From Promethearchaeati archaeon (GTDB lineage: Archaea; Asgardarchaeota; Heimdallarchaeia; JABLTI01), in assembly GCA_013166835.1 (NCBI GenBank), contig JABLTI010000002.1, positions 594-64,593 on the forward strand: a DNA stretch of 64,000 nucleotides. The letters run 5' to 3'. Shown piece by piece: positions 6,605-64,000 of this stretch. The notes beneath the pieces are model-generated. The model did no database searches, was not told the DNA's origin, and saw only the letters and a list, made by a program, of their open reading frames with translations. Every line of letters starts with the position of its first letter. The stretch's first letter is position 1. A program made the translations under genes and the position numbers.

Positions 6605-7990
6605 ATGGAAGAAGAAAAAAATCGTACATTGAAAGAACTTCTACCACCTGTGAATTTGTTACCTTTACTATTTTCATATACTATAGATCACATAGCTGTT
6701 TCATCTTATTGGATATTTTTCGGTATTTTTCTTAGTGAAGAAATTTCTGATTCATATCTAGATGTCGCAGTTATTCTAGCAATCCCAGCTATAATATCTG
6801 TTTTTGGAACTACAGTACTTAGTTCCTTTTCAGATAAAACTGGTCGTCGAAAACTATTGATATTTGTCGCAAAAATCGCATTAATGATGCAGTATGTCTT
6901 GTTATTGCTTTTTGGGACAAAAGTCTGGAATATATTGCTAATTCTTACACTCTTTGGTATTTTCGCTCAAATCTATTATACTCAAGTTAGTGCACTTATT
7001 ACTATTATTTGTCCACCAGATAAAAAAGGACAAGTCTCAAGTTATCTAATATTTTTCGCCAGCTTAGGATGGATGATTGGTAGTAGTTTATCAGATATAA
7101 TTTATGATTGGCAGGGAATTACTGGTAGTCTTGGATTTGCTGCTGGTTTTGCTCTAGTTGCAGGTCTAATAGCAATGCTTTCAACTTCGAAACCTTATAG
7201 TAAACAAGTTGAAGTAGATCATGCTGAAATTACTCATGAAAAGGAAATTAAGACATGGGTTTTGGATCATAAACCTCGGATAGTTGAACCTATAAAATCC
7301 ACAGAGAAATACGCATCATACTTTGAGATTTTCAAAAGACGGAAAATACTAGTTCTTTTATTAACGCTAGCTATTTTGGATTTCGGATTTGGTCCATTTA
7401 ATGTTATAAGTTCTGTTTATATGAAGAATGTTTATTTGACGCATTTCGGTGATGAGATCTTGGCAAATACCTTAATAGCCAAATCAAACACAATAGCAAC
7501 AGTTCTTGGTATGGTTATATTATTTACCAGTGGTTCAATCCTGGATAGAACAGGACGTAAACCAATCATTATCTTTTCGATTCTTTGTTATCCAATTCTG
7601 TATACGTTTATGTTCTTCTTTTCGAGTCATCCTTGGGCATTGTTTGCAATATATTTGTATCCTCTTTATGCATTGAAAGCTCCTACAGCAAATACAATTA
7701 TGGCAGATTTGACTTCAGATAATGAACGAGGAAGAGGTATAAGTTTAGTTCAAATAGAACAAATTGTCTTTGGGAACTTAGGTGCAATATTAGGTTGTTA
7801 TATTGCTGATATCTTTCCAGGCGATTTAATTCCACGATTTGTTCCAGAGGGTATATATATAATTCCAATATTCCCGATGGTACTTGGTCTTGTAGCACTA
7901 TTATTATCGATATTTCTAATAAAAGAATCAAATCCAAAAGTACTTGCTAAAATTGCTGGAATAGAAAAAATGAGTGTCGGCCCTAAATAA
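6605..7990 (+). CDS. MFS-type transporter
   Basis: About 12 hydrophobic helices in two halves split by a charged loop. MFS-like loop motifs SDKTGRRK and LDRTGRKP follow TM2 and TM8. Confidence 0.75.
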   Translation: MEEEKNRTLKELLPPVNLLPLLFSYTIDHIAVSSYWIFFGIFLSEEISDSYLDVAVILAIPAIISVFGTTVLSSFSDKTGRRKLLIFVAKIALMMQYVLLLLFGTKVWNILLILTLFGIFAQIYYTQVSALITIICPPDKKGQVSSYLIFFASLGWMIGSSLSDIIYDWQGITGSLGFAAGFALVAGLIAMLSTSKPYSKQVEVDHAEITHEKEIKTWVLDHKPRIVEPIKSTEKYASYFEIFKRRKILVLLLTLAILDFGFGPFNVISSVYMKNVYLTHFGDEILANTLIAKSNTIATVLGMVILFTSGSILDRTGRKPIIIFSILCYPILYTFMFFFSSHPWALFAIYLYPLYALKAPTANTIMADLTSDNERGRGISLVQIEQIVFGNLGAILGCYIADIFPGDLIPRFVPEGIYIIPIFPMVLGLVALLLSIFLIKESNPKVLAKIAGIEKMSVGPK

Positions 7991-52856: not shown

Positions 52857-53795
52857 ATGGACCCAATAATTAAGGTGGAGAATGTATCAAAAATATTCGG
52901 TCGATACATATCCCGAGCTAGAGTAACTTCATTACGAGATATTGATTTCACAATCAAAAAAGGTGAAAGAATTTGTTTATTCGGTCCAAATGGTGCTGGA
53001 AAATCAACTTTAATGAAAGCAATAATGGGCTTACTCAAGCCAACAGAAGGGCAAATCTACATTAAAGGTTATAATGTTCGATGGAACCCACTAAAAGTAA
53101 AACAAAGCATAGGTTACTTGCCTTCTGAGTTAGATTTCTATCTGAATACCCCATGTAAAGAATCGCTATTTCATTTTGGAATTTTGAGAGGCCTTCCCAG
53201 AAAAGTAGCATTGCAAGAGACTGATAGATTATTAGAATTAATTGGCTTAGCAAAATGGTGGGATCTACCTCCAAAATTAATGTCATCAGGTATGAAACAA
53301 AGATTTAGTCTTTCATTAGCAATTATTGGAGATCCGGAGATAATTCTCTTTGATGAACCAGTCGCCTTTATAGATGTTCAAGGAAAATTGAAAGTCTATC
53401 AATTAGTACAAGATTATGTTAAAGACAAAGCAAAAACAGTCATCATGTCCACACATAATATCCAAGATGCTCTAGTAATGAGTGATCGTTTAATCCTCAT
53501 GGATAGAGGACGAATAATAGTCGATGGACCAATTACAGAAGTTATTACAAAACGATGTAAGTCTATGGAAATTATCCTATCACAAGACGTTCCCTCTAAA
53601 AAGGAAATAGTAAAAGTTATTGGAGAAGAGGATTTCGAGCTCTCGGGCCGAAAAATCTTGGTACGATCAGAAAATGCTTTGCAAATTAGCACCTCAATTG
53701 TAAATAGACTCCAAGAGAATAAAATCTCGGTGTTTTCATTCAGACCTTTTGTAGAACAGAGGAGAACTAAAAACGATGCGGAGGAAGCAACCTAG
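52857..53795 (+). CDS. ABC transporter ATP-binding protein
   Basis: GPNGAGKST, MSSGMKQR signature, IILFDEP Walker B, STH H-loop, plus a C-terminal extension. Confidence 0.85.
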   Translation: MDPIIKVENVSKIFGRYISRARVTSLRDIDFTIKKGERICLFGPNGAGKSTLMKAIMGLLKPTEGQIYIKGYNVRWNPLKVKQSIGYLPSELDFYLNTPCKESLFHFGILRGLPRKVALQETDRLLELIGLAKWWDLPPKLMSSGMKQRFSLSLAIIGDPEIILFDEPVAFIDVQGKLKVYQLVQDYVKDKAKTVIMSTHNIQDALVMSDRLILMDRGRIIVDGPITEVITKRCKSMEIILSQDVPSKKEIVKVIGEEDFELSGRKILVRSENALQISTSIVNRLQENKISVFSFRPFVEQRRTKNDAEEAT

Positions 53796-53805
53796 GTGAT
53801 GCATT

Positions 53806-54693
53806 ATGGGAACAGAACCTCTTGAACCTCAAAAAAAGAACTTTTTCAGTCGTTTATTTATGCAAATAACAGAAAGAAATCCCCTCTTAGAAATCCGGGA
53901 AACAAGTGAAATAGTAAGATACGAATTCAAAAGAATAATTCTAACATTAAAATTCTTTATTGCCTTATCTTTTGTTTTGCTTCCCGCAATAATATTCTTG
54001 AATTCAATTGCAAGCGATTATGAAGCATTACTACTAGATTTTGGAGTAGATGCATTTAGAGCTTTCAGCGCAGCAGGATTTGTGAATATTGGACAATTCC
54101 TCCTACAAATGATTGGAATTATGTTGACATTAGACAGTTTTGGAAAAGTAGCTGATGATAGTATGAAGAGATATTTTGCATTACCAGTAAGAAAAAATAA
54201 TCTATACATTGCTCATGCAATAACTGCATTTTTGGGGACCATTTTAACAGGACTACTTGGCATAATAGTATTCAATCTAATACTCTGGATTTGGACAGGA
54301 GTCTCGTTAACATTCTTGCTAATAGTAAAATCATTCTTTTTAATATCAGCAGGAGCATTTCTAGCAATATCAATAACCACTTTATTTGTTATAATCGCGA
54401 ACTTTTTCGGTTTCGCAAGTTCTATAGCCATAGTTCCAACACTCTTTATTTTCTATATTATCCCCTTCCTAGTTAATTTCGTAACATCTTTCGCATTTGG
54501 TTTGCCAGAAGCATATCAATGGACGTTTATGTATCAACTGGCAGTCGCAACGGATTTCATGATAGAACCTTTCATCGGACTGCAACTGAGTCTGGAACAA
54601 GTAACAAATAGGAATGCATGGTTAATAATTGGAATAATCAGTGGTATCACACAAATACTATCACTAATTATTTTTGCTGGAAGTGAAAAATAA
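53806..54693 (+). CDS. ABC-2-like permease partner
   Basis: 295 aa with six hydrophobic helices, starting 10 nt downstream of the ATPase gene. Confidence 0.55.
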   Translation: MGTEPLEPQKKNFFSRLFMQITERNPLLEIRETSEIVRYEFKRIILTLKFFIALSFVLLPAIIFLNSIASDYEALLLDFGVDAFRAFSAAGFVNIGQFLLQMIGIMLTLDSFGKVADDSMKRYFALPVRKNNLYIAHAITAFLGTILTGLLGIIVFNLILWIWTGVSLTFLLIVKSFFLISAGAFLAISITTLFVIIANFFGFASSIAIVPTLFIFYIIPFLVNFVTSFAFGLPEAYQWTFMYQLAVATDFMIEPFIGLQLSLEQVTNRNAWLIIGIISGITQILSLIIFAGSEK

Positions 54694-54706
54694 AAGAAAG
54701 AGGAAA

Positions 54707-56128
54707 CTAAATTCTTGGTTTTATGTAGTTAGTTTCCATTAATAGATCTGTTAAGTTACGAGCATATTTTATCTTTTCCGAAACGATTTTGTAAAGCTCT
54801 TCTTCTTCCATTTCATTTCGAGCGATCCCTTGTTCAATAGCTTTCATTCCTACTCGTGTAGCCTCGAGTAAATAGACTTCAGTTTCACTCATTTTGGGTA
54901 TCACATAGTCTTCCTTCAAACCATTCTTCTCTGCAACTTCAACTAGAGCATGTGCAGCAGCAATACACATTTCATCTGTAATTGTTTTCGCATGAACATC
55001 CAATGCTCCACGGAAAATAGCTGGAAATCCTAAACTATTGTTGATCTGATTTGGAAAATCACTGCGTCCAGTGCCAACTACTTTAGCACCAGCATCTTTA
55101 GCATCCCAAGGCCAAATTTCAGGAAGCGGATTTGCACAAGCAAATACAATGGAATCTTTAGCCATATGAGATATCCATTCTTCCTTTATAGTCCCAGGTT
55201 TAGAACGAGCAGCAGAAATTACAACATCAGCACCTTTGGTAGCATCACCAAAATCACCACTAATGTCATCTTTATTTGTTTTATGAGCCAAATCGTATTT
55301 GAATGGGTCATATTCCTTTTGTGCAATAACATCTTGACGTTTATCATTGAGAATGCCTTTTGAATCACACATGATAATGTTATTCGGATCAGCACCTGCA
55401 GCTATTAACAAATATGCAGTCCTAGTGTTTGCTGCACCAACACCAAGCATAGCAATTTTAGCTTGATCAAGTTCTTTACCAACAAATTTCAGAGCACCAA
55501 GAACACCTGCAAGAACAACAGTGCCAGTTCCTTGAGCGTCATCGTGAAAAACTGGGATTTCAACTTCAGGATCATTTCTTAACGCTTCAAGCACTTTGTA
55601 GCACTTGGGTTTAGAAATATCCTCTAAATTAATACCTCCAAATGATGGTTGAATGAGTTTAACTGTTCGGATGATATCTTCAGGATCCTTAGTATTCAAA
55701 CAGAGAGGAACTGCATCAACACCACCCAAGTATTTGAAAAGTAAGCTCTTCCCCTCCATTACGGGCATTGCAGCTTCAGGACCGATATCCCCTAATCCTA
55801 ACACTCGGGTTCCGTCAGAAACGACTGCAATAATATTGGATTTGTTAGTGTGCTCATAAACTTGTTCTTTGTCCTCTTTAATTGCTAAACAAGGAGCAGC
55901 AACTCCTGGAGTATACCACACACTGAAAGCATCAAATCCCCATATAGAACATTTAGGAACAGTCTGCATTTTACCTTTGTAATATGGATGTAGTTTCATA
56001 GCTTCTTTCTCAGGTCTCTTAGCCTTCTTTATCAATTCTTCTTCAGTAACTTTTTTCTCTGTCAATCCTTTCATCTTCTCAGAATAAGTTTTATGAATGG
56101 AATAGCTTGAACTATTTAAAATATCCAT
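54707..56128 (-). CDS. NAD(P)-dependent malic enzyme (short prokaryotic type)
   Basis: YYKGK...VWYTPGVAAPC, VSDGTRVLGLGDIG, VFHDDAQGTGTV, LGVGAAN. The true start may be an internal Met (e.g. MKGLTEKK). Confidence 0.85.
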   Translation of the reverse strand: MDILNSSSYSIHKTYSEKMKGLTEKKVTEEELIKKAKRPEKEAMKLHPYYKGKMQTVPKCSIWGFDAFSVWYTPGVAAPCLAIKEDKEQVYEHTNKSNIIAVVSDGTRVLGLGDIGPEAAMPVMEGKSLLFKYLGGVDAVPLCLNTKDPEDIIRTVKLIQPSFGGINLEDISKPKCYKVLEALRNDPEVEIPVFHDDAQGTGTVVLAGVLGALKFVGKELDQAKIAMLGVGAANTRTAYLLIAAGADPNNIIMCDSKGILNDKRQDVIAQKEYDPFKYDLAHKTNKDDISGDFGDATKGADVVISAARSKPGTIKEEWISHMAKDSIVFACANPLPEIWPWDAKDAGAKVVGTGRSDFPNQINNSLGFPAIFRGALDVHAKTITDEMCIAAAHALVEVAEKNGLKEDYVIPKMSETEVYLLEATRVGMKAIEQGIARNEMEEEELYKIVSEKIKYARNLTDLLMETNYIKPRI

Positions 56129-56232
56129 CGCTTCAAACTATAAAAGAAATATTTAACAAGAAATGATTTTATCAAAAAAAGAGAAATGCTTAAAACAGAT
56201 GAGGAAAAGAACAAAACAAGCTAGGTATACGA

Positions 56233-56379
56233 GTCGAGGTAGCCTAGCCTGGTTTCGGATGTCCATGCGTGTTCATTCGCCAGAATGGGCGCCTGACTCA
56301 TAATCAGATCAATGAAAATCAGGGCCAGATTTGATGGGACATCAGGAGGTCGGGGGATCAAAGCCCCCCCTCGACACCA
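56233..56379 (+). tRNA. tRNA with CAT anticodon (elongator Met, or Ile2 if C34 is modified), two introns, encoded CCA
   Basis: 7-bp acceptor GTCGAGG/CCTCGAC, discriminator A, CCA. D-stem GCCT/GGGC. Anticodon arm CCTGA-CTCATAA-TCAGG, completed only after removing 56303-56340 (the canonical 37/38 position). T-arm GGGGG-ATCAAAG-CCCCC. The D-loop is about 32 nt too long, and the extra sequence folds (CTGG/CCAG and CGGATG/CATTCG). It is not initiator-like (G1:C72, no GGG/CCC in the anticodon stem). Confidence 0.75.
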
Positions 56380-56395
56380 TTAATTTCAATGTTTA

Positions 56396-56900
56396 AAACA
56401 ATTTTCGAGTTTTTTTTAATTCAGAAGCATGTGTGATAGTATAATAAAAATCTAAAACTCAAATTATACGATACTATTCATCATATTGGATATCAGATGC
56501 GGTTTGTGTTATTACGTCAGAATACTTACTTAAAACACGTTTTCTCTCTTCATGCAACATAAGAAATATGTTTTATATGAATTTAACATAGCAAGCTTCT
56601 GAAATATCACTAGCTCTTTTTTTTATACTAATTATTTTGCTTATAATTGGTATCGATTTCTTAACTTCATCTGTATATAGTTTTGTAATAAGCTTGTCTG
56701 ATTTGAAAAATATCTTAGCTATGCGTCCATATAACGTTTCAGAGGCTGTTTGACCTATTTTAACTCACTTGCCTGCTTGAATAATCAAACCATTCTTTTT
56801 AAAAACAACAAGATATTTCTAATTGGTTTTTCCTCTAAGCTCCTTTTTTTTTTAATTTCTAATAGCATTTTTTCTTTGAAAAAAGTCATAACCATTCTCA
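56396..56900 (-). pseudogene. degraded partial copy of the wHTH gene at 58158..58862 (C-terminal two thirds only)
   Basis: Nucleotide similarity to 58158-~58680 is visible by eye over ~500 nt (e.g. TACTAATTATTTTGCTTATAATTGGTATCGATTTCTTAA vs TACTAATTATTTTTGCAATAATTGGTATTGATTTCTTAA). No ORF of 60 aa or more survives on either strand. Boundaries are approximate. Confidence 0.6.
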
Positions 56901-56957
56901 AATAAATTAGAATGTATGTAAGGAATATTTAAGAATAAGTTAGATTACCACATAATT

Positions 56958-57839
56958 ATGAATCAGTCCAAATTAAAAGAATTAACAAGTAAGATCTATT
57001 ATTTACCTTTTGGTGAAAATTATCGCCCTAATTTGGTAGCAATAGTAGGAGCACAAATTACTTTATTAGTAGATGCAGGGAATTCTCCAAAACATGCAAA
57101 ATTGTTTTTAGAAGAATTATCTAAATGTGATATCGCACCCATAAAATATGTAGCTTTAACTCATTGGCATTGGGATCATCATTTCGGATTAGCAGCAATG
57201 AATTTTACAAGTATAGCTCATTTCAAAACAAAAGAGAAAATGGTAGAACTAAGTCACTTTTCTTGGGATGATGAGTCAATACAAAAAAGAGTGGAAGAAG
57301 GAACAGAAAATATCTTTGTGAGAGATGGTATCAAACAAGAATTTCCTGAAGCAAATAGAACAATTCAAATTGGTACCATAGATATTTCATTCACTGAAAA
57401 ATTAGAAATTCAGCTTGGTGATCTCTTTTGTATAATAGAGAACGTTGGAGGAGATCATTCATCCGATTCTAGTATAATATTCGTTCCAGAAGAGAAGGTT
57501 GTCTTAACCGGTGATTGTTTATCTCCAAATCCTTATAGAAAAGACGGCAAAATTGAATATCGAACCGAAAAATTATTTCCTTTGATTGACAAGCTTAAAA
57601 GCTATAATGCTGAATATTATGTCAATTCACATGGTTTACCAATGACTAGAACGACCTTTGAAAAGTGGTGTCAGGAATTTATTTTAATTGGTTCGTTAGT
57701 AGAGAAACAGAATAAGCAATTCGAAGAAATTCTAAGTGAATTAAAAAACAAAGCTCACAAAGAAAACAAAGCTATTGATGATAGTTGGCTCGAAGAAAAA
57801 AGTTTTATTATTCAAGCATTTCTGAATGGTTTAGATTGA
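56958..57839 (+). CDS. metallo-beta-lactamase-fold hydrolase
   Basis: HxHxDH motif (LTHWHWDHHFG), later GDHS and TGDC...H ligands. 293 aa. Confidence 0.75.
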   Translation: MNQSKLKELTSKIYYLPFGENYRPNLVAIVGAQITLLVDAGNSPKHAKLFLEELSKCDIAPIKYVALTHWHWDHHFGLAAMNFTSIAHFKTKEKMVELSHFSWDDESIQKRVEEGTENIFVRDGIKQEFPEANRTIQIGTIDISFTEKLEIQLGDLFCIIENVGGDHSSDSSIIFVPEEKVVLTGDCLSPNPYRKDGKIEYRTEKLFPLIDKLKSYNAEYYVNSHGLPMTRTTFEKWCQEFILIGSLVEKQNKQFEEILSELKNKAHKENKAIDDSWLEEKSFIIQAFLNGLD

Positions 57840-58096
57840 ACTAAAAGGAGAAATGTTTGTGTTCGAGCTATTTCTTCTTTTGAGTAGTTCTTTTGTTTTT
57901 ATTTTTTGGGTAATATTATGATTGAGATATAAGTTATTGCTAGGTTACTTTTTTTAAAGCTATAAAATCTGGAAAAGATTAGGTAATAAAATCGCAACCC
58001 AATTCGAGCTCAACATATTGCTTGAATACTTTAGCAAGTTTACAACCCTTTACAATATACTCTCCTTTATCATTTTGAAAAACGTCTTCATGAAGA

Positions 58097-58151
58097 CCAA
58101 ATTTGATGTGACGTCAGGAGGTCGTGGGATAAAAGCCCGCCCTCGACACCA
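58097..58151 (+). repeat. orphan copy of the tRNA 3' part (end of intron 2, then exon through CCA)
   Basis: 49 of 55 positions are identical to 56325-56379 by hand alignment. It lacks the 5' two thirds of the tRNA, and the invariant T-loop C56 is changed (ATCAAAG to ATAAAAG). Confidence 0.7.
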
Positions 58152-58157
58152 TTCATT

Positions 58158-58862
58158 CTAGGATTTTATGCAATCATTAAGTAATTTTTTCAATTCTGAT
58201 GCATGTGTTATTAAGTAGTATATATCAAGAAATTGATTAACAAGATTCAATTCATTATATTTAGCATCAACTGCAGTTTTGGTAATTTCTTCTGAATATT
58301 TACTTAATACTCGTTTTCTTTCATTATGCAGCATAATATAACACTCTTTTACAAATTTAGTAAGGCACTCTTCTGAGATTTCTTTTGCTTTTTTTTCCAT
58401 ACTAATTATTTTTGCAATAATTGGTATTGATTTCTTAATCTCATTTACACGTAGTTTTGTAAAATCCTTATCTGATTTGAAGTAAACCTTAGCTGTACGA
58501 CCATATAATGTTTCAGATGCAGTTTGACCCATCTTAACTCGTTTACCTGCATGAACTACTAATCCTAATTTTATCAAGATATCAAGATATTTGTAAAGTG
58601 TTTTACCTTTTCGTTCAGCTTTTTCTCTAATTTCCTTCTTCTCTTTATCTTCTAAAGGCATCTTTTCGATTTTTTTAGCAATAATCAAATTATATTCTCT
58701 TTCCAATTCTTTAACAGACATGGGTCCTTTTCGTAAAGCAATTAAAATTGGTTCATATCTTGGATCTTCTATTACTTCCCAAATTTTTTTGTCACCTAAG
58801 ATTTCAAATGCTTTTTCTTCTGTAGTTACAAAATCTCGATAATCCAATTTCATCACATGCAT
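58158..58862 (-). CDS. winged-helix (ArsR/PadR-like) DNA-binding protein with long helical C-terminal domain
   Basis: N-terminal wHTH pattern (YEPILIALRKGPMSVKELEREYN...GKTLYKYLDILIKLGLVVHAG.RV). 234 aa. Parent copy of the pseudogene at 56396-56900. Confidence 0.55.
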   Translation of the reverse strand: MHVMKLDYRDFVTTEEKAFEILGDKKIWEVIEDPRYEPILIALRKGPMSVKELEREYNLIIAKKIEKMPLEDKEKKEIREKAERKGKTLYKYLDILIKLGLVVHAGKRVKMGQTASETLYGRTAKVYFKSDKDFTKLRVNEIKKSIPIIAKIISMEKKAKEISEECLTKFVKECYIMLHNERKRVLSKYSEEITKTAVDAKYNELNLVNQFLDIYYLITHASELKKLLNDCIKS

Positions 58863-58998
58863 TTAATAATTATTTAATAATGCTAAAGGATTAAAACTTT
58901 TCTCCAGTTATGAAAAAATGTTTCTCTAGTTATAGAAACATTAATATATAGAATTAGAGAATTATTTCTCTATAATTGGAGAAAATTGTCTGTGATAA

Positions 58999-60381
58999 AT
59001 GATGTTGGAAACAGAAACTAAGCAACCAAAAATACAATCAAATATGAAAGGTTTCATGTTTTTCTGGTCTGGCCAATTAGTATCAATATTAGGATCTACT
59101 ATTATACAATTTGTATTAACATGGTGGATCACTATTGAAACATCGAGTCCGCTTTTATTATCATTAGCTATGTTTGTTGGTTTTATACCAACGATAATCT
59201 TAACTCCTATTGCTGGAGTATTTGTTGATAGATGGAATAGAAAAGCACTAATTGGTACTGTTGATTTTCTACAAGCAGCAGTAACCGTAGTATTACTGTT
59301 CCTTTTCAGATATGATTTTGTTACTATTCCTATTTTATTGATCTTCTTAGCTGTTCGAGGAGTGTTTCAAGCGTTTCATCAACCAAGTCTTATGGCCTTA
59401 ATTCCCATTATGGTTCCTCGAAAACATCTTGGTCGAGTAAATAGTATTGCTTTTTTCTTCAACAGCATCATATTCCTCATAGGTCCTATCATTGCTGCTT
59501 TCTTGTATAAATTTCTAGCAGTTTACCATATTCTGTGGATAGATGCTGCAACATTTTCTATTGCTGTCATTCCATTAATCTTCATAAAAATTCCAAAGAT
59601 TATCAAAGAGAAAGTAGAGACCAAAGAAAAGAAGAAGTTTTTTGCAGACCTTAAAGTAGGATTTGCCTTTATTAAAGAGAAAAAAGGATTGCTTCCACTC
59701 CTAGGTGCATTTACAGGAGGAAATTTCTTTATGATGCCTTTGTTCACCTTACTCAATCTTTTTATTTATTCTACGCATGCTGGAACTGAAACAAATTTAG
59801 CTTTTGTTCTTGCATTTAATCAAGCTGGAGTGATCGTCGGATCAATACTCTTTATAATATGGAAAGGATTTAAGAAAAAAGCACTTGGTGTCATAATTGG
59901 TCTTCTCTGCATGTATTCTGGTTTCATGTTTCTAACATTCGCTCCGAGTCAGTGGTTCTGGTTTATAGGCATAGGTTTTATGATAATAGGATTCGGTTTG
60001 CCAATGGCGAACATCTCAAGTCAAACCATTTGGCAATCTGTAGTTCCAAAAGAGAAGTTAGGTAGAATTATGTCAGTAAGAATGGCTATTGCTCAATTTA
60101 CTGCGCCTCTTGGTATGATATTGAGTGGCGTTATAACTGATGCTATTGCTAGAAGACTTGCTAAGAATGTTGCTCAAGACGTTGCTGATGCATTATCAAT
60201 AAAGTACATCTTCATCGGAGCGACGGTTTTAGGCATAGTTTTTCTAGCAATTTCATGGTTATTCACCTCAATGAGACATGTTGAACAAGGAATTATTCCC
60301 ATAGAAGATGATGCATTGAAGTTAGAAACAGATGATCTTTTTGATGTAGAACCTTCCACAAAATTAACAACAGTGGATTAG
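58999..60381 (+). CDS. MFS transporter (EntS/macrolide-efflux-like)
   Basis: 12 TM helices. GVFVDRWNRK loop after TM2 and a charged central loop. Confidence 0.8.
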   Translation: MMLETETKQPKIQSNMKGFMFFWSGQLVSILGSTIIQFVLTWWITIETSSPLLLSLAMFVGFIPTIILTPIAGVFVDRWNRKALIGTVDFLQAAVTVVLLFLFRYDFVTIPILLIFLAVRGVFQAFHQPSLMALIPIMVPRKHLGRVNSIAFFFNSIIFLIGPIIAAFLYKFLAVYHILWIDAATFSIAVIPLIFIKIPKIIKEKVETKEKKKFFADLKVGFAFIKEKKGLLPLLGAFTGGNFFMMPLFTLLNLFIYSTHAGTETNLAFVLAFNQAGVIVGSILFIIWKGFKKKALGVIIGLLCMYSGFMFLTFAPSQWFWFIGIGFMIIGFGLPMANISSQTIWQSVVPKEKLGRIMSVRMAIAQFTAPLGMILSGVITDAIARRLAKNVAQDVADALSIKYIFIGATVLGIVFLAISWLFTSMRHVEQGIIPIEDDALKLETDDLFDVEPSTKLTTVD

Positions 60382-60430
60382 AATTCAAACCTATATGTAA
60401 TAGGTTTGAATAATCCACTTTCTTTTTTTA
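60373..60430 (+). terminator. long hairpin plus T-tract overlapping the MFS stop codon
   Basis: GTGGATTA/TAATCCAC (8 bp), a 3-nt bulge, then TTCAAACCTAT/ATAGGTTTGAA (11 bp) with a 5-nt loop, followed by TTTCTTTTTTTA. Confidence 0.5.
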
Positions 60431-60600
60431 TAAAACTCAATAATTATTTGATATTTTTTGCGAGTAAAAAAAAGATACCTTTTAATGTAATGTGTTTGCT
60501 AGTTCTTGAATGTAAAGAAAACATTTATACAAAAGCGGTAATATTTCGTTTTATACGTTTAAATCGAAATTTCGACAATGAATAACAGGAGATTTGTTCC

Positions 60601-61764
60601 TTGAGCGAAAAAAGTAATAGTGGTCGTCGAAGAAAACAGAAAAAAAGAGTGGGTATTCCACGTGGTCTACTTTACTATTACTTTGATACTATGTGGGAAA
60701 GCTTTTTTGGAGCTTTAGGAGCAGAAGTGGTTCTTTCATCTGAATCAAATAAGAAGATAAAAGATACTGGTGTGCTGGAAACTCTTGATGATGAATGCTA
60801 TTCTACCAAGCTATATCATGGTCACGTTTTAGATTTAGTAGATGAAGAGCTTGATTACTTGTTTGTTCCTAGATTTGCAAGTCGTAATAAGCAAGAAGTG
60901 GGTTGCCCGAAATTTGTTGCTCTCGCTGATGTTCTCCAACATACCAAGGAGAATCTTCCACCAATCATTGGACCTTATTATAGTACTTCTCGAGAAAAAC
61001 ATGGTTTTTGGCGTCTCGTCAGAATAATCTTCGAGATTGGATTTAAATTCACAAAAAATCCTCTACGTATAATCTATGCTGCTCTTAAATCTCTGAGAGA
61101 TCATAGAAAATCAAAGAAAGAACTCGTAAAAAGTGAATATATTCTGAAGAAATGGGAACGATCAGAAATTTTACTGAATGATCCTCCTTTGAATACTAAC
61201 GGAGATGAAATACTGAAGGTAGCACTTGTCGGCCATTCCTATGTTATTAACGATAGTTTTGCTTCTCTAGGTGTTCGTAAAAAACTTCAAGAACTGGGGA
61301 TTGACATTGTAACCTCTGAACAAATGCCAAGAAATCTCATTAAGAGACAGCTCCTTCGATTATCCATGAGAAATTATGGCTTAGAGTTTCCTGAACCAGA
61401 AAAACTTCCTAAAAAAGAATTACAGAAGCAATTTGTTGGAAGGAATGATTATCTTTACTTTGAATTTGAACACGAAATAGTTGGAACAGCAATGCATTTC
61501 CTCGAGACAAACTCGATAGATGGGATATTAATGCTTGTTAATTTCATCTGTGGTCCAGTCTCAGTCACAACAGAATATGCAAAACAATTTGCTAAGAAAA
61601 TAAAGGCAGAAACCCCACTAGCCATACTTACACTTGATGCTCATACTGGTGAAGCAGGTTTCCAAACTAGATTAGAAGCATTTAGCGATATTCTTAGAAT
61701 GAAGAAAAGTACCGGCACACTCTCTGAATCTGTAAAGGAGAAATCTGAATTTATAATATTTTGA
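60601..61764 (+). CDS. DUF2229-type domain protein (CoA-enzyme-activase-associated, 2-hydroxyacyl-CoA dehydratase-like fold)
   Basis: VGIPRGLLYYYFDTMWESFFGALGAEVVLS...LDDECYSTKLYHGHVLDL matches the N-terminal pattern of the uncharacterised domain usually fused to BcrAD/BadFG activases. Confidence 0.65.
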   Translation: MSEKSNSGRRRKQKKRVGIPRGLLYYYFDTMWESFFGALGAEVVLSSESNKKIKDTGVLETLDDECYSTKLYHGHVLDLVDEELDYLFVPRFASRNKQEVGCPKFVALADVLQHTKENLPPIIGPYYSTSREKHGFWRLVRIIFEIGFKFTKNPLRIIYAALKSLRDHRKSKKELVKSEYILKKWERSEILLNDPPLNTNGDEILKVALVGHSYVINDSFASLGVRKKLQELGIDIVTSEQMPRNLIKRQLLRLSMRNYGLEFPEPEKLPKKELQKQFVGRNDYLYFEFEHEIVGTAMHFLETNSIDGILMLVNFICGPVSVTTEYAKQFAKKIKAETPLAILTLDAHTGEAGFQTRLEAFSDILRMKKSTGTLSESVKEKSEFIIF

Positions 61765-61781
61765 AGGAGTAGAAAGAAAAT

Positions 61782-62924
61782 ATGTCTATAGTTACTTACC
61801 CCCATTTTGGTCCTCTAACAAGACTCTTTAAAGCGGTTTTTCAAGTATTAGAAGTTCCAGAAGAACGAATTGTTGCTCCTTCAGTTCCTAACAAACGAAC
61901 TCTCGATATTGGATCAGAGCATTCTCCTGAATGGATGTGCACTCCCTTCAAATTAAGTTTAGGTTCACTCATTGAAAGCTTGGAAAGAGGGGCTAATCAT
62001 GCTTTTCAGATTGGAGGAATCGGAACTTGTCGTGCAAGTTGTTATGGTCCAGTTCAAAGAGTAATAATCGAAGATCTTGGTTTTAGTGCTAAGTTTTCTA
62101 ATATTGATTATCATTTACCCATTGACATGTTAAAGGATTTCAAATCGGTTAGTAATGGTTTTACTTTTTTGCAAACAGTAGCAGCTATCCGTAAGATTTG
62201 GGTGAAAAATTATTCTCTTGACTTAACCGAGAATTTGATTAATTTTTATCGAGGAGTAGAAATAGAGAAAGGGCAGACAGATAAGGTTGCTAGTGAAGTA
62301 TATGATAAATTATTCGATATTCATCGTGTTCGAGAAATTAAGAAATACCACAAAGAAATACCAAAAATCTTTAAAGAGAAAATTCCAATTGATGAAGATG
62401 CCGATCCCTTGAAAATCGGTGTTATCGGTGAAATCTACGTTGTTCTAGAACCAATGCTTCACTTGGATTTGTATCGACGATTGAATGATTTGGGAGTCAT
62501 TTGTCGAAATACTGTTTCATTAAAGAAATTCACAGATATCCCTGCGAAGTTTAATCCATTTGTTAAAGAATACTATAAAGTTTATAGAGAAAAAGCACGG
62601 CCCTATATTCAACAATACTGTGGTGGGGATGGACAGGAAAGCATCGGAGCAACAATCTTGTTACGGGAATTAGGTTGGGATGGAATGGTCCATATTTGGC
62701 CATTCAGTTGTATGCCTGAATTAAGTGCTCAAACTGTCATTCCTGTTGTTTCACATGATACTGGAATGCCTGTTCTTCCAATGGTTGTAGATGAACAAAC
62801 AGGTGAAACAGGATATCAAACAAGATTAGAAGCATTTGTTGATATGTTAAAAATAAAACGCGAAAAAGAACGAGCTGGAAAACCACCAGAAAAAATATCT
62901 TGGGAGAAATTTAATTATGACTAA
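61782..62924 (+). CDS. DUF2229-type domain protein, second half
   Basis: SPEWMCTPFKLSLGSLIESLERGAN and a C-terminal DEQTGETGYQTRLEAF that parallels DAHTGEAGFQTRLEAF in the upstream ORF. Confidence 0.65.
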   Translation: MSIVTYPHFGPLTRLFKAVFQVLEVPEERIVAPSVPNKRTLDIGSEHSPEWMCTPFKLSLGSLIESLERGANHAFQIGGIGTCRASCYGPVQRVIIEDLGFSAKFSNIDYHLPIDMLKDFKSVSNGFTFLQTVAAIRKIWVKNYSLDLTENLINFYRGVEIEKGQTDKVASEVYDKLFDIHRVREIKKYHKEIPKIFKEKIPIDEDADPLKIGVIGEIYVVLEPMLHLDLYRRLNDLGVICRNTVSLKKFTDIPAKFNPFVKEYYKVYREKARPYIQQYCGGDGQESIGATILLRELGWDGMVHIWPFSCMPELSAQTVIPVVSHDTGMPVLPMVVDEQTGETGYQTRLEAFVDMLKIKREKERAGKPPEKISWEKFNYD

Positions 62925-64000
62925 AAATTGTAATTGTCCAACTGAACCAGAATTAGTTATCACTGAATCCCCTACTGGCGAGGAATTAATTGAAAATATC
63001 GAAGAAGAACTCTCAGTAAAAGATGAATCTGAGAAGTTCTATTTAGGAGTAGATGTGGGTTCTATAAGTACAAATCTTGCAATTATTGATGGGCAGAAGA
63101 GGCTAATTAAGTCTGTTTACATTCGTACAGAAGGACGACCAATACAATCAATTCAAAAAGGAGTTACTCTCTTAAAAGAGATGGTTGGCGAGGATTTTCA
63201 AATCGTTGGCGTAGGTGCAACTGGAAGTGCAAGGCAATTAACAGGATTATTAGTCGGTGCTGATGTAGTAAGAAACGAGATTACTGCTCATTCACTTGCT
63301 TCTCTCCATGAGAATTCTGAAATACAAACAATTATGGAGATCGGAGGACAGGATAGTAAAATCATACTAATTAGAAATGGTGTTCCTGTCGATTTTGCCA
63401 TGAATACTGTTTGTGCAGCAGGAACAGGTTCATTTCTGGATCAACAAGCAAATCGTCTTGAAATACCAATCGAGGATTTTGGAGGATTAGCAAGTAAATC
63501 AGATAACGCTGTTGCTATTGCAGGGCGTTGCACAGTTTTTGCAGAATCAGATATGATCCACAAGCAACAACTTGGTCATCCAGTTGAAGATATTATTCGT
63601 GGATTGAGTGAAGCATTAGTACGCAATTATTTGAATAATGTTGGAAAAGGAAAGGATATTCGTGGTCCGATTATGTTTCAAGGTGGAGTTGCAGCTAACA
63701 TTGGTATAAGGGATGCCTTCAGACGATCTCTCATAAAATCAGGAAAGATAAGCCATAAAGATGAATTAATCGTTCCTGAAAACTTTTTTGTTATGGGAGC
63801 TATTGGTGCTGCTATTCTCGCATTGAATAAAATGGTTAAAAATCCTGAAGCAAAAACGAAATTCGTTGGTTGGCAAATTCCAGATATTCAATATAAAACA
63901 AAGGGATTTGAGTGCAAAGATTGTCCAAATATCTGTGAAATAATTGAGGTTTATATGGACGAAGAAGTAATCGCTCGATGGGGTAGTAAATGTGGGAAAA
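62917..64000 (+). CDS. BcrAD/BadFG/HgdC-type ATPase (CoA-substrate-specific enzyme activase), partial, runs off the right edge
   Basis: Frame +1 is open from ATG 62917 (8-nt overlap with the upstream gene, 62917-62924) to the window end. ASKHA motifs LGVDVGSISTN, EIGGQDSK, NTVCAAGTGSFLD and RCTVFAESD (cluster-ligand Cys region). Absent from the ORF track because there is no stop in the window. Confidence 0.85.
   Translation, partial: MTKNCNCPTEPELVITESPTGEELIENIEEELSVKDESEKFYLGVDVGSISTNLAIIDGQKRLIKSVYIRTEGRPIQSIQKGVTLLKEMVGEDFQIVGVGATGSARQLTGLLVGADVVRNEITAHSLASLHENSEIQTIMEIGGQDSKIILIRNGVPVDFAMNTVCAAGTGSFLDQQANRLEIPIEDFGGLASKSDNAVAIAGRCTVFAESDMIHKQQLGHPVEDIIRGLSEALVRNYLNNVGKGKDIRGPIMFQGGVAANIGIRDAFRRSLIKSGKISHKDELIVPENFFVMGAIGAAILALNKMVKNPEAKTKFVGWQIPDIQYKTKGFECKDCPNICEIIEVYMDEEVIARWGSKCGK

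What the first reader, a model, noticed from the sequence alone, without database searches (positions are those of the whole stretch)
56311..58680. Diverged direct duplication of (tRNA 3' part plus 3' two thirds of the flanking wHTH gene) bracketing an MBL-fold gene: scar of a Campbell-type integration or segmental duplication
The segment 56311-~56900 holds the end of tRNA intron 2, the 3' exon with CCA, and a decayed copy of the downstream minus-strand gene. It recurs at 58088-~58680, where the tRNA piece is orphaned and the gene is intact. The tRNA part is 49/55 identical. Both partners of one T-stem pair changed together (G:C to T.G), but the invariant C56 is lost. The gene part is much more diverged, and the copy next to the functional tRNA has no surviving ORF. 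The ~1.2 kb between the repeats carries only an MBL-fold hydrolase gene. tRNA 3' ends are classic integration sites. A direct repeat extending beyond the tRNA into the neighbouring gene fits single-crossover insertion of a circular DNA carrying a homologous segment better than a short att site does. No integrase is present.
Basis: seen in the sequence. Interest (0 to 1): 0.65.

Follow-up and report, generated by a model that had tools for sequence, protein, structure and literature searches.

The report
Insertion scar in archaeal tRNA gene
A 1.8-kb patchwork of foreign DNA (a dead gene copy, a metallo-hydrolase gene and a scrap of a third gene) was recombined into a two-intron tRNA gene of a Heimdall-group archaeon. 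It pushed the tRNA's old 3' end downstream as an orphan: a clear but ordinary scar of homology-driven gene insertion at a variable spot in the genome.

Summary
Window 56318-56859 and 58090-58634 are direct repeats (398/547 identical, E 3e-98). The tRNA 3' motif occurs exactly twice, against 0 expected.

The upstream copy completes a two-intron tRNA-Met(CAT) gene and carries a dead, N-terminally truncated copy of the wHTH gene. That copy has six in-frame stops and no frameshift. The downstream copy is an orphan tRNA piece next to the intact wHTH gene.

Contigs from four sequencing runs in three studies carry the same structure, so it is not an assembly artefact. Every relative sampled has an empty site with a single copy: tRNA, then wHTH directly. 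These include a strain whose wHTH is 98.6% identical. The difference is exactly 1,772 bp.

I make three corrections:
- The insert is a patchwork, not only an MBL gene. It holds the wHTH pseudogene, a ~1-kb MBL cassette, 133 nt of unknown origin and a 112-nt internal piece of an ATC-hydrolase-like gene that normally lies 7.2 kb downstream.
- The true orphan is 58103-58151.
- The orphan's T.G pair derives from the resident C:G. The working tRNA's G:C is a foreign covariant.

I found no integrase and no viral relatives.

The best model is integrase-independent insertion of DNA from a related lineage. It needs one homologous exchange in the tRNA and one microhomology joint. The site is a hypervariable slot beside the tRNA. 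This is a new example of a known kind, of modest interest.

The parts
56233..56379 (+). Working tRNA-Met(CAT) gene with two introns. Exon 1 is about 56233-56252. Intron 1 is about 56253-56285 (D-loop; limits +/-3 nt). Exon 2 is about 56286-56302. Intron 2 is 56303-56340 (canonical 37/38 position, bulge-helix-bulge). Exon 3 is 56341-56379 with encoded CCA. From T-stem position 50 (56353) onwards it is of the incoming type (G50:C64).
   Evidence: ARAGORN and Rfam miss it. ARAGORN calls tRNA-Met(CAT) after in-silico splicing. RNAalifold gives a cloverleaf plus a BHB with bulges TAA 56301-56303 and ACA 56339-56341, and covariation at pair 50:64 (CG 4, GC 2, UA 1).
56331..56866 (.). Repeat copy R1: the last 10 nt of intron 2, exon 3, the 3' flank and the decayed gene copy.
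   Evidence: BLASTN 56318-56859 against 58090-58634, 72.8% over 547 columns, E 3e-98. The left limit is corrected to 56331 because 58090-58102 belongs to another gene fragment.
56393..56878 (-). Pseudogene of the wHTH regulator. It covers residues 73-226 only, in one frame, with six internal stops at 56852, 56819, 56765, 56573, 56474 and 56459 (first base of each codon on the + strand). The first two helices of the wHTH are missing.
   Evidence: tblastn gives 93/156 identical, E 2e-41. Stop codons are listed. Differences by codon position are 0.28/0.22/0.42. The nearest known allele is only 61.5% identical.
56867..57857 (+). MBL-fold hydrolase cassette (CDS 56958-57839, 293 aa, with about 90 nt upstream and about 18 nt downstream). 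Its left edge is joint J1, at about 56860-56867.
   Evidence: Pfam Lactamase_B, 6.8e-15. The cassette is 90% identical to metagenome contigs L012 and L013 over exactly this span, and their flanks are unrelated.
57858..57990 (.). 133 nt of filler of unknown origin.
   Evidence: No match in the window or in any fetched locus.
57991..58102 (-). Internal fragment of an ATC-hydrolase-like gene ('X'). The full copy lies about 7.2 kb downstream, at window-equivalent ~65.36 kb, outside the window.
   Evidence: The same X1 and X4 contigs align a second time to 58010-58102. tblastn and BLASTN match L016 7322-7441, inside ORF 7129-7842. The L022 orthologue hits PF14196 at 4e-07. Identity is 80% to the strain's own gene, 78% to L016, 73% to L022 and 93% over 60 nt to L023.
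58103..58151 (+). Orphan tRNA piece: the last 10 nt of intron 2 plus exon 3 with CCA. This is the displaced resident 3' end. Joint J3 lies at 58102|58103 in the microhomology CCA[A/G]AT. It differs from the resident-type tRNA at 58109 (breaks the BHB helix), 58113 (A38G), 58125 (C50T) and 58131 (C56A).
   Evidence: Its 3' flank is identical to the flank of the complete tRNA in L001-L003. The loose-end consensus shows gene X continuing differently after 58102.
58158..58862 (-). Intact wHTH regulator gene (234 aa) of repeat copy R2. The repeat reaches about 58634-58650.
   Evidence: ORF. The family has 39 members, all Asgard and mostly Heimdallarchaeota. ArsR/TrmB-type wHTH is supported only at family level: P0018 hits HTH_5 at 3.4e-06 and P0004 hits TrmB at 7.8e-04.
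58999..60381 (+). MFS transporter gene, transcribed divergently from wHTH. It is the other half of the resident cassette.
   Evidence: Pfam MFS_1, 1e-41. The pair is conserved in L001, L004-L009 and L010.
58132..60290 (.). Block mostly 93-100% identical to strain L001 (a dip to 88-92% in the 58850-59050 intergenic region). The flanks are only 61-95% identical. This is a recent homologous exchange of the wHTH-MFS cassette between lineages.
   Evidence: Sliding identity. Pairwise identity by segment.
56380..60465 (.). The variable slot between the tRNA 3' end and the conserved right flank that starts at GTAAAAAAAAGATACC (60464).
   Evidence: Slot contents differ between lineages: wHTH-MFS (L001, L004-L009), nothing (L020, L021), a 237-aa membrane protein (L022, and the same flank in L017), a truncated gene X (L023).

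Best explanation
**What happened.** In the window's lineage, 1,772 bp of DNA from a related but clearly diverged Heimdallarchaeial lineage was recombined into the 3' part of the tRNA-Met(CAT) gene. No integrase was involved.

**What came in.** The incoming DNA was a rearranged version of the same tRNA-proximal region:
- the tRNA 3' part with a G50:C64 T-stem;
- that lineage's own wHTH allele, already or soon truncated;
- an MBL-hydrolase cassette;
- 133 nt of filler;
- a fragment of the ATC-hydrolase-like gene X.

**How it joined.** One end joined by homologous exchange inside or just upstream of the tRNA, somewhere left of T-stem position 50. The other end joined illegitimately at a 6-nt microhomology, CCA[A/G]AT. 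That joint links the gene-X fragment to a point 10 nt before the 3' splice site of the resident tRNA's canonical intron. This is homology-facilitated illegitimate recombination. Single-crossover (Campbell-type) integration of the same DNA after circularisation at that joint gives the identical product.

**Result.**
- The working tRNA is a chimera whose 3' end was supplied by the insert.
- The resident 3' end, with the resident wHTH-MFS cassette, was displaced 1.77 kb downstream.
- The orphan and the truncated gene copy have since decayed.
- The MBL gene is the only intact cargo.

**Shown:** the repeat, the empty sites, the patchwork content, the joints, the absence of an integrase, and the mosaic recombination at the locus.

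**Inferred:** that the insert is foreign, the direction of the event, and the recombination mechanism.
For: **The insertion is specific to this lineage.**
- Empty sites occur in every relative, with a 1,772-bp difference.
- The structure was assembled independently in four runs from three studies.

**The downstream copy is the resident one.**
- The orphan's 3' flank and the wHTH gene are 98.6-100% identical to L001-L003, where they adjoin a complete tRNA.
- The orphan's G64 matches the C50:G64 state of those tRNAs.

**The upstream copy is foreign.**
- G50:C64 is found otherwise only in L020 and L021.
- The pseudogene differs from the resident allele by 30% of nucleotides, with a third-position excess (0.28/0.22/0.42). 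Intact orthologues differ in the same way. That is allelic divergence plus some decay, not decay of a recent local copy.
- The gene-X fragment is 20% different from the strain's own X gene but 93% identical over 60 nt to L023's.
- The MBL cassette is 90% identical to L012 and L013, which have unrelated flanks.

**The backbone is continuous around the insert.** L022 matches at 82-98% on the left and 84-98% on the right, mostly 95% or more beyond 61064.

**No site-specific machinery.**
- The Pfam tables of the neighbourhood contain no integrase or transposase.
- There are no IMG/VR or phage matches.

**Homologous exchange is rife at this locus.** A block about 98% identical to L001 sits between flanks that are 61-95% identical, and the slot has several alternative contents.

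**Precedent.** Homology-facilitated illegitimate recombination that leaves displaced orphan 3' modules is described in PMC5361080 and the references it cites.
Against: - The donor lineage has not been found. No database protein is more than 61.5% identical to the pseudogene, and no contig shows the proposed donor arrangement.
- The X gene of the window's own genome lies outside the window. I inferred it from near-identical contigs of run X1.
- One read laying row gave 0 differences for the X4 copy. I treat that row as unreliable, because X1, X2 and X4 show the same 130 differences to L016.
- Alleles at this locus are swapped so often that a local duplication followed by allele replacement cannot be excluded.
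- All four changes in the orphan lie in its left 29 nt (4/29 against 10/731 in the gene, Fisher p = 0.0013). This could instead mark a second recombination boundary inside the orphan.
- There is no experimental evidence for this recombination route in Asgard archaea.
Confidence: 0.55

Rival explanations
1. **Local tandem duplication.** A unit of about 7.2 kb was duplicated in place, from 10 nt before the end of tRNA intron 2 to the middle of gene X. J3 is the duplication joint. Most of the upstream copy (wHTH N-terminus through the gene X C-terminus) was later deleted and replaced by the MBL cassette plus filler. The downstream wHTH-MFS and X alleles were then replaced by homologous recombination with other lineages, which made the copies look foreign to each other.
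For: - J3 joins the right end of such a unit to its left end, exactly as a tandem-duplication joint would.
- The left limit of R1 coincides with the insertion point.
- Allele replacement does happen here: a block about 98% identical to L001 lies between 88% flanks, and the slot has several contents.
- The orphan's four changes sit left of 58132, where identity to L001 becomes complete. That fits a later import ending inside the orphan.
Against: - It needs more events: a duplication, a 6.5-kb replacement and at least two allele replacements.
- The G50:C64 against C50:G64 difference needs a further exchange or a double substitution.
- The pseudogene's codon-position pattern shows long divergence under selection.
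- No relative retains any intermediate stage.
Confidence: 0.25
2. **Reverse direction.** The window's ancestor had the reduced locus (tRNA(G:C), truncated wHTH, MBL, filler, then a 3'-truncated gene X). It later regained the 7.2-kb block from the tRNA 3' fragment through wHTH, MFS and onwards to X from another strain. The homologous anchor was in or beyond X, and J3 was the illegitimate joint.
For: - Reduced slot states exist: L020 and L021 lack wHTH-MFS and carry G50:C64, and L023 has the tRNA directly next to X.
- The wHTH-MFS block is about 98% identical to L001.
Against: - The region 61064-64000 would be part of the regained block, yet it is closest (95-98%) to L022. L022 is also the nearest relative on the left side of the tRNA. 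The backbone therefore looks continuous across the site.
- The L001-like block ends at about 60290, inside MFS, not at gene X.
Confidence: 0.08
3. **Decayed integrative element.** The structure is the remnant of a virus, plasmid or other element that entered the tRNA gene by site-specific recombination, with the two tRNA 3' copies as attL and attR.
For: - tRNA 3' ends are classic integration sites (Williams 2002, cited in PMC8813620).
- Heimdallarchaeum viruses and aloposons integrate next to tRNA genes (PMC8813620).
- The working tRNA is completed by incoming sequence, as in such integrations.
Against: - There is no integrase or other mobility gene within about 10 kb on the left or 6 kb on the right.
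- The repeat extends 0.5 kb beyond the tRNA, into a chromosomal gene conserved at this position in relatives.
- The right-hand joint is made with a fragment of a chromosomal gene, at a microhomology inside the intron.
- There are no matches in IMG/VR or phage records for the att-like motif or for the MBL protein.
- MBL composition is like that of its neighbours (GC3 0.21 against 0.18-0.28).
Confidence: 0.05
4. **Artefact or old paralogy.** The structure is an assembly chimera of co-occurring strains, or two old paralogous loci.
For: The sample holds several related strains, and the locus is a mosaic.
Against: - The same structure appears in contigs of 39.5 kb, 22.4 kb and 5 kb, and in overlapping small contigs. 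These come from four runs in three studies at even depth.
- The joints share no long exact repeat that an assembler could mis-join.
- Every relative has a single copy.
Confidence: 0.02

Closest known systems
Homology-facilitated illegitimate recombination and module displacement (Acinetobacter, Streptococcus, Pseudomonas transformation; Rhs C-terminal displacement; orphan immunity-gene arrays in Vibrio T6SS clusters, PMC5361080)
   Same: One conserved anchor recombines homologously, and the other end joins at a few bases of microhomology. The old module is pushed downstream and kept as an orphan that still shares a homologous stretch with the new one.
   Different: The anchor here is a tRNA gene in an Asgard archaeon. 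The displaced part includes a piece of the tRNA itself. The mechanism is inferred from sequence only, and no uptake route for the DNA is known.
Integrase-mediated integration into tRNA genes (Williams 2002; archaeal SSV-type and pNOB8-type elements; HeimV1 and aloposons of Heimdallarchaeum, PMC8813620)
   Same: The target is the 3' part of a tRNA gene. The incoming DNA restores a working tRNA. A partial tRNA copy remains as a direct repeat at the far end.
   Different: There is no integrase and no mobility genes. The repeat is 0.5 kb long, 73% identical and runs into a chromosomal gene. The insert is only 1.77 kb. The joint lies inside the intron against a chromosomal gene fragment.
Flexible genomic islets next to tRNA genes that are swapped by recombination in conserved flanks (population genomics of marine bacteria; from my own knowledge)
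   Same: The limits are sharp and conserved (tRNA 3' end on the left, 60464 on the right). Alternative gene contents occur in closely related strains. Alleles are far more divergent than the flanks.
   Different: This is described here for Heimdallarchaeia. The window shows an untidy, duplicative outcome rather than a clean swap.
Split tRNA genes of Nanoarchaeum and Caldivirga (3' halves preceded by intron-like leaders; from my own knowledge)
   Same: A separate 3' tRNA piece begins within the canonical intron.
   Different: A complete gene stands upstream. The orphan has lost C56, A38 and a BHB helix base. It has no 5' partner and no evident promoter, so it is a relic and not a half-gene.

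Membership tests
Site-specific integrative element at a tRNA gene | A tyrosine or serine recombinase gene within or beside the insert | tested here: not met
   Pfam scans of the window's own ORFs from 52857 to 62924 found none. The precomputed Pfam tables of the collinear loci L001, L004-L009 and L022 also show none. The 1.77-kb insert has one intact ORF, the MBL gene.
Site-specific integrative element at a tRNA gene | Short, near-identical att repeats confined to the tRNA 3' part, bounding the element | tested here: not met
   The repeat is about 535 bp, 73% identical and extends into the wHTH gene. The right joint is with a gene-X fragment, 10 nt inside the intron.
Site-specific integrative element at a tRNA gene | Relatives of the element, or its attP, on viruses or plasmids | tested here: not met
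   The tRNA motif is absent from IMG/VR. The MBL protein has no relative in IMG/VR or phage records, and plasmid matches are 40% identity or less, in Bacillales.
Homology-driven duplicative insertion (Campbell-type single crossover or homology-facilitated illegitimate recombination) | An empty site in close relatives that differs by exactly the insert length, with one repeat copy | tested here: met
   L001-L003, L004-L009, L011, and strains in X9 and X11. The joint 56359>58132 skips 1,772 bp.
Homology-driven duplicative insertion (Campbell-type single crossover or homology-facilitated illegitimate recombination) | Direct repeats made of one resident and one incoming homologous segment | tested here: met
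   R2 matches L001 at 98.6-100%. R1 carries G50:C64 and an allele 30% diverged with a selection-like codon pattern.
Homology-driven duplicative insertion (Campbell-type single crossover or homology-facilitated illegitimate recombination) | A novel joint at microhomology | tested here: met
   J3 at 58102|58103: gene X reads GACCAAAT and the tRNA intron reads GGCCAGAT.
Homology-driven duplicative insertion (Campbell-type single crossover or homology-facilitated illegitimate recombination) | Identified donor sequence or circular intermediate | tested here: inconclusive
   No donor-like contig appeared in the protein collection, the GTDB representative genomes or the JGI metagenomes. No circle-type joint appeared in contigs. 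Raw reads were not available.
Recent local tandem duplication | Copies near-identical, or diverged only by neutral decay | tested here: not met
   Nucleotide difference is 30%, with a third-position excess. The X fragment is 20% different from the strain's own gene. The T-stem pair differs on both sides.
Archaeal intron-containing tRNA gene | A cloverleaf after intron removal and a bulge-helix-bulge at the splice sites | tested here: met
   ARAGORN calls tRNA-Met(CAT) on spliced forms. Intron 2 has a BHB with 3-nt bulges and a 4-bp central helix. Intron 1 has only a relaxed motif, and its exact limits are not fixed.
Split tRNA gene (functional 3' half) | Intact T-arm and splice-motif bases, plus a complementary 5' half | tested here: not met
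   The orphan carries C56A, C50T, A38G and a broken BHB helix base. The motif occurs only twice in the window, and the other copy is the complete gene.

The most novel reading that the evidence does not exclude
The slot beside this tRNA may be a general, integrase-free landing pad in Heimdallarchaeia. Gene cassettes would be captured and exchanged there using the conserved tRNA, including its intron, as the homology anchor. The orphan that begins inside the canonical intron would then be a natural snapshot of how tRNA genes break at introns, the step proposed to lead to split tRNA genes.
Probability: 0.12. Interest if true: 0.55.

Novelty: new member of a known kind. Interest (0 to 1): 0.3.

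Why it matters
The locus is a well-resolved example of how a relative of the eukaryotic ancestor gains a gene without any mobile-element machinery. Both the before and after states are sampled, the joints are resolved to the base, and several alternative slot contents are available for comparison. It shows that homologous exchange between diverged Heimdallarchaeial lineages is frequent enough to make a mosaic of a 10-kb region.

It also warns annotators on two points. The tRNA is invisible to ARAGORN and Rfam because of its two introns. The orphan piece and the pseudogene could be mistaken for an att site or for a small gene.

It does not reveal a new mechanism or system.

Tried and rejected
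- **tRNA detection.** ARAGORN and Rfam on the raw window found no tRNA. I had to splice it in silico (one search failed on a parsing error).
- **Malic-enzyme tract.** I first took the divergent malic-enzyme tract (54650-56130, 63-82% identical to L021, L004 and L007) for part of the imported DNA. I rejected this because L022, the nearest backbone relative, shares that allele (82-98%) while carrying a C:G tRNA and a different slot content.
- **Bases 58090-58102.** I first read these as diverged intron sequence. I rejected this because the same contigs align 58010-58102 to gene X, 7.2 kb downstream, and X continues differently after 58102.
- **The X4 row.** A read laying row suggested that the X fragment is identical to X4's own gene. 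I set it aside because X1, X2 and X4 show the same 130 differences to L016 over that gene.
- **Donor search.** No wHTH homologue is closer than 61.5% to the pseudogene. The G:C tRNA pattern found only L020 and L021, which lack the gene altogether. GTDB representative genomes hold only C:G types.
- **MBL on mobile elements.** None found in IMG/VR or phage records, and plasmid homologues are distant.
- **RNA evidence.** No RNA runs were listed.
- **Composition.** No anomaly in the insert.


Full report

BLASTN of 56100-57000 against 57900-59000 gives a single strong plus/plus alignment: 56318-56859 against 58090-58634, 398/547 identical, E 3e-98. Every other hit has E > 0.05. The 38-nt tRNA 3' motif occurs exactly twice in the 64-kb window, with none in 100 shuffles.

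- The tRNA part is 49/55 identical.
- Pair 50:64 is G:C against T.G.
- C56 has become A at 58131.

The upstream gene copy (56411-56878, minus strand) aligns to residues 73-226 of the intact 234-aa protein at 60% identity, in one frame. It has six internal stops of all three kinds, no frameshift and no N-terminal third.

The window has 33.6% G+C. Its proteins' nearest relatives are annotated Heimdallarchaeota.

**2. The tRNA**

ARAGORN and Rfam find no tRNA in the window. After removing two introns in silico, ARAGORN calls tRNA-Met(CAT) for most splice variants.

Eight sequence variants of the same gene, each with both introns, come from other contigs. RNAalifold on seven of them gives the acceptor and T arms and a standard bulge-helix-bulge for intron 2 at the canonical 37/38 position. 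The bulges are at 56301-56303 and 56339-56341, so the intron is 56303-56340. Intron 1 sits in the D-loop.

T-stem pair 50:64 covaries among lineages:
- C:G in most;
- U:A in L011;
- G:C in the window, L020 and L021.

**3. Empty sites**

The wHTH family has 39 members, all Asgard. Fetched contexts in L004-L009 read MFS, wHTH, tRNA, malic enzyme, with no MBL gene and one wHTH copy. The partial contigs L001-L003, L010 and L011 show the same single-copy layout as far as they reach.

In L001-L003 the wHTH gene is 98.6% identical to the window's. The complete tRNA there is followed by a flank identical to the flank of the window's orphan. Strains in runs X9 and X11 show the empty joint directly; in X9 it skips exactly 1,772 bp.

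Contigs from runs X1, X2, X4 and X5 (three studies) carry the window's structure. They include contigs of 39.5 and 22.4 kb, at even depth.

This is therefore a real, lineage-specific insertion. It is not an ancient paralogy and not an assembly artefact.

**4. Which copy is resident?**

- The orphan, wHTH and most of MFS (58132 to about 60290) are mostly 93-100% identical to L001. The flanks are only 61-95% identical.
- The orphan's G64 is the resident state, and its T50 is one transition from C50.
- The working tRNA is identical to L001 up to position 49. From there it carries G50:C64 and an unrelated 3' flank.

So the downstream copy is the displaced resident. The 3' end of the working tRNA came with the insert.

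**5. What the insert contains**

| Span | Content | Evidence |
|---|---|---|
| 56353-56379 | tRNA 3' end | |
| to about 56866 | wHTH pseudogene | |
| 56867-57857 | MBL-hydrolase cassette (Pfam Lactamase_B, 6.8e-15) | |
| 57858-57990 | 133 nt with no match anywhere | |
| 57991-58102 | internal fragment of gene X, minus strand | |

- The MBL cassette is 90% identical to contigs L012 and L013 over exactly this span, and their flanks are unrelated.
- Gene X is an ATC-hydrolase-like gene (PF14196 in the L022 orthologue). Its full copy lies about 7.2 kb downstream in the same contigs.
- The fragment is 80% identical to the strain's own X, 78% to L016, 73% to L022 and 93% over 60 nt to L023.
- After 58102, gene X would continue CTTGGTAAG. 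The window continues instead with the last 10 nt of tRNA intron 2.
- That joint lies in the microhomology CCA[A/G]AT.

**6. Foreign or local copy?**

The pseudogene differs from the resident allele at 28%, 22% and 42% of first, second and third codon positions. Intact orthologues at similar distance differ in the same way, although the pseudogene shows some excess at second positions. It therefore diverged mainly as a working gene and then decayed. No database allele is closer than 61.5%.

Four lines together point to DNA from another lineage rather than a recent local copy:
- the pseudogene's pattern of divergence;
- the both-sided T-stem difference;
- the 20% divergence of the X fragment;
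- the separate history of the MBL cassette.

The backbone around the site is continuous. L022 is the nearest relative on both sides (82-98% on the left; 84-98% on the right, mostly 95% or more beyond 61064) and shares the window's unusual malic-enzyme allele.

**7. The setting**

The interval between the tRNA 3' end and 60464 is a variable slot:

| Loci | Slot content |
|---|---|
| Most lineages (L001, L004-L009) | wHTH-MFS |
| L020, L021 | nothing |
| L022 (same flank in L017) | a 237-aa membrane protein |
| L023 | a truncated gene X directly after the tRNA |

wHTH alleles differ by 26-35% between lineages whose flanks are about 90% identical. The wHTH-MFS cassette has recently passed between the L001 lineage and the window's lineage. 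Homologous exchange in the conserved flanks is evidently common here.

**8. Mechanism**

I found no integrase, transposase or other mobility gene in the neighbourhood. The tRNA motif and the MBL protein have no relatives in IMG/VR or phage records. Plasmid homologues are 40% identical or less, in Bacillales. Composition is unremarkable.

The repeat is far too long and too diverged for an att site, and one joint is a microhomology joint with a chromosomal gene fragment.

The simplest account needs two joins:
- one homologous exchange in or near the tRNA, left of position 50;
- one illegitimate joint at 58102|58103.

This is homology-facilitated illegitimate recombination. The equivalent alternative is single-crossover integration after circularisation at that joint. 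Displacement of an old module that survives as an orphan sharing a homologous stretch is known from Rhs loci and Vibrio T6SS clusters (PMC5361080). Integrase-driven insertion next to tRNA genes is known in Heimdallarchaeum (PMC8813620), but its defining features are absent here.

**9. Rivals**

- **Local 7.2-kb tandem duplication.** It would have J3 as its joint, followed by internal replacement and two allele swaps. It explains the topology equally well but needs more events. I give it 0.25.
- **Reverse direction** (a reduced locus regaining the 7.2-kb block). The continuous L022-like backbone argues against it: 0.08.
- **Decayed integrative element:** 0.05.
- **Artefact or paralogy:** 0.02.

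**10. Decay since the event**

The orphan has four changes in 49 nt relative to the resident-type tRNA:
- a BHB helix base (58109);
- A38G (58113);
- C50T (58125);
- C56A (58131).

All four lie in its left 29 nt (4/29 against 10/731 in the adjoining gene, Fisher p = 0.0013). This may reflect neutral decay of a useless piece, or a later import whose left end lies inside the orphan. I could not decide between these.

**11. Verdict**

The finding is correct and its interpretation essentially right. It is a clean example of a known kind of event, in an interesting organism.

Noticed in passing
window 56233-56379: A two-intron tRNA-Met(CAT) gene (D-loop intron plus canonical 37/38 intron) that both ARAGORN and Rfam at gathering thresholds miss. 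Standard annotation would therefore lack this tRNA.
   Followed up: yes
window 56258-56264 with 56337-56343: The 5' part of intron 1 (GATGTCC) is complementary to the 3' end of intron 2 plus the first exon-3 bases (GGACATC). L018 keeps the helix through two both-sided changes. In 10 of 500 shuffles the covariation measures reached the observed values. The helix overlaps the BHB central helix, so it would be an alternative fold. Support rests on one divergent sequence.
   Followed up: partly
window 56380-60465; L020, L021, L022, L017, L023: The interval after the tRNA is a variable slot with a sharp right limit at GTAAAAAAAAGATACC (60464). At least five different contents occur among related lineages, including a completely empty state.
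   Followed up: partly
window 58132-60290: Block mostly 93-100% identical to GCA_029856285.1 (L001), set between flanks of 61-95% identity. The break is abrupt, at about 60290, inside the MFS gene. Inside the block, the wHTH-MFS intergenic region (58850-59000) drops to 88-92%.
   Followed up: partly
window 54650-56130: The malic-enzyme gene is a divergent allele. It is 63-82% identical to L021, L004 and L007 although upstream DNA is about 90% identical. It carries a 21-residue N-terminal extension (473 against 452 aa). Only L022 shares it (94% protein identity).
   Followed up: partly
window 56958-57839; P0040-P0125: Homologues of the MBL protein carry precomputed hits to PF23023 (Anti-Pycsar Apyc1) beside Lactamase_B. 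My own hmmscan of the window protein listed only Lactamase_B families. Outside Asgard, the nearest relatives are Bacillales proteins at about 40% identity.
   Followed up: no
L023 8382-8680: In this more distant lineage a 5'-truncated copy of the ATC-hydrolase-like gene lies 35 nt from the tRNA 3' end. Its sequence is 93% identical over 60 nt to the fragment in the window, although the two genomes are only about 75% identical overall.
   Followed up: partly
L014 6001-7962: A Hodarchaeales homologue of the MBL gene (56% identity) sits next to IS110-family transposase fragments and a VapBC pair, that is, in another variable region.
   Followed up: no
window 60601-62924 and beyond: Downstream of the slot lies a conserved cluster: two DUF2229 (CoA-enzyme activase-like) genes, then, outside the window, BcrAD/BadFG, a flavin reductase, DUF3788 and the ATC-hydrolase-like gene (from L001, L007 and L022).
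   Followed up: no
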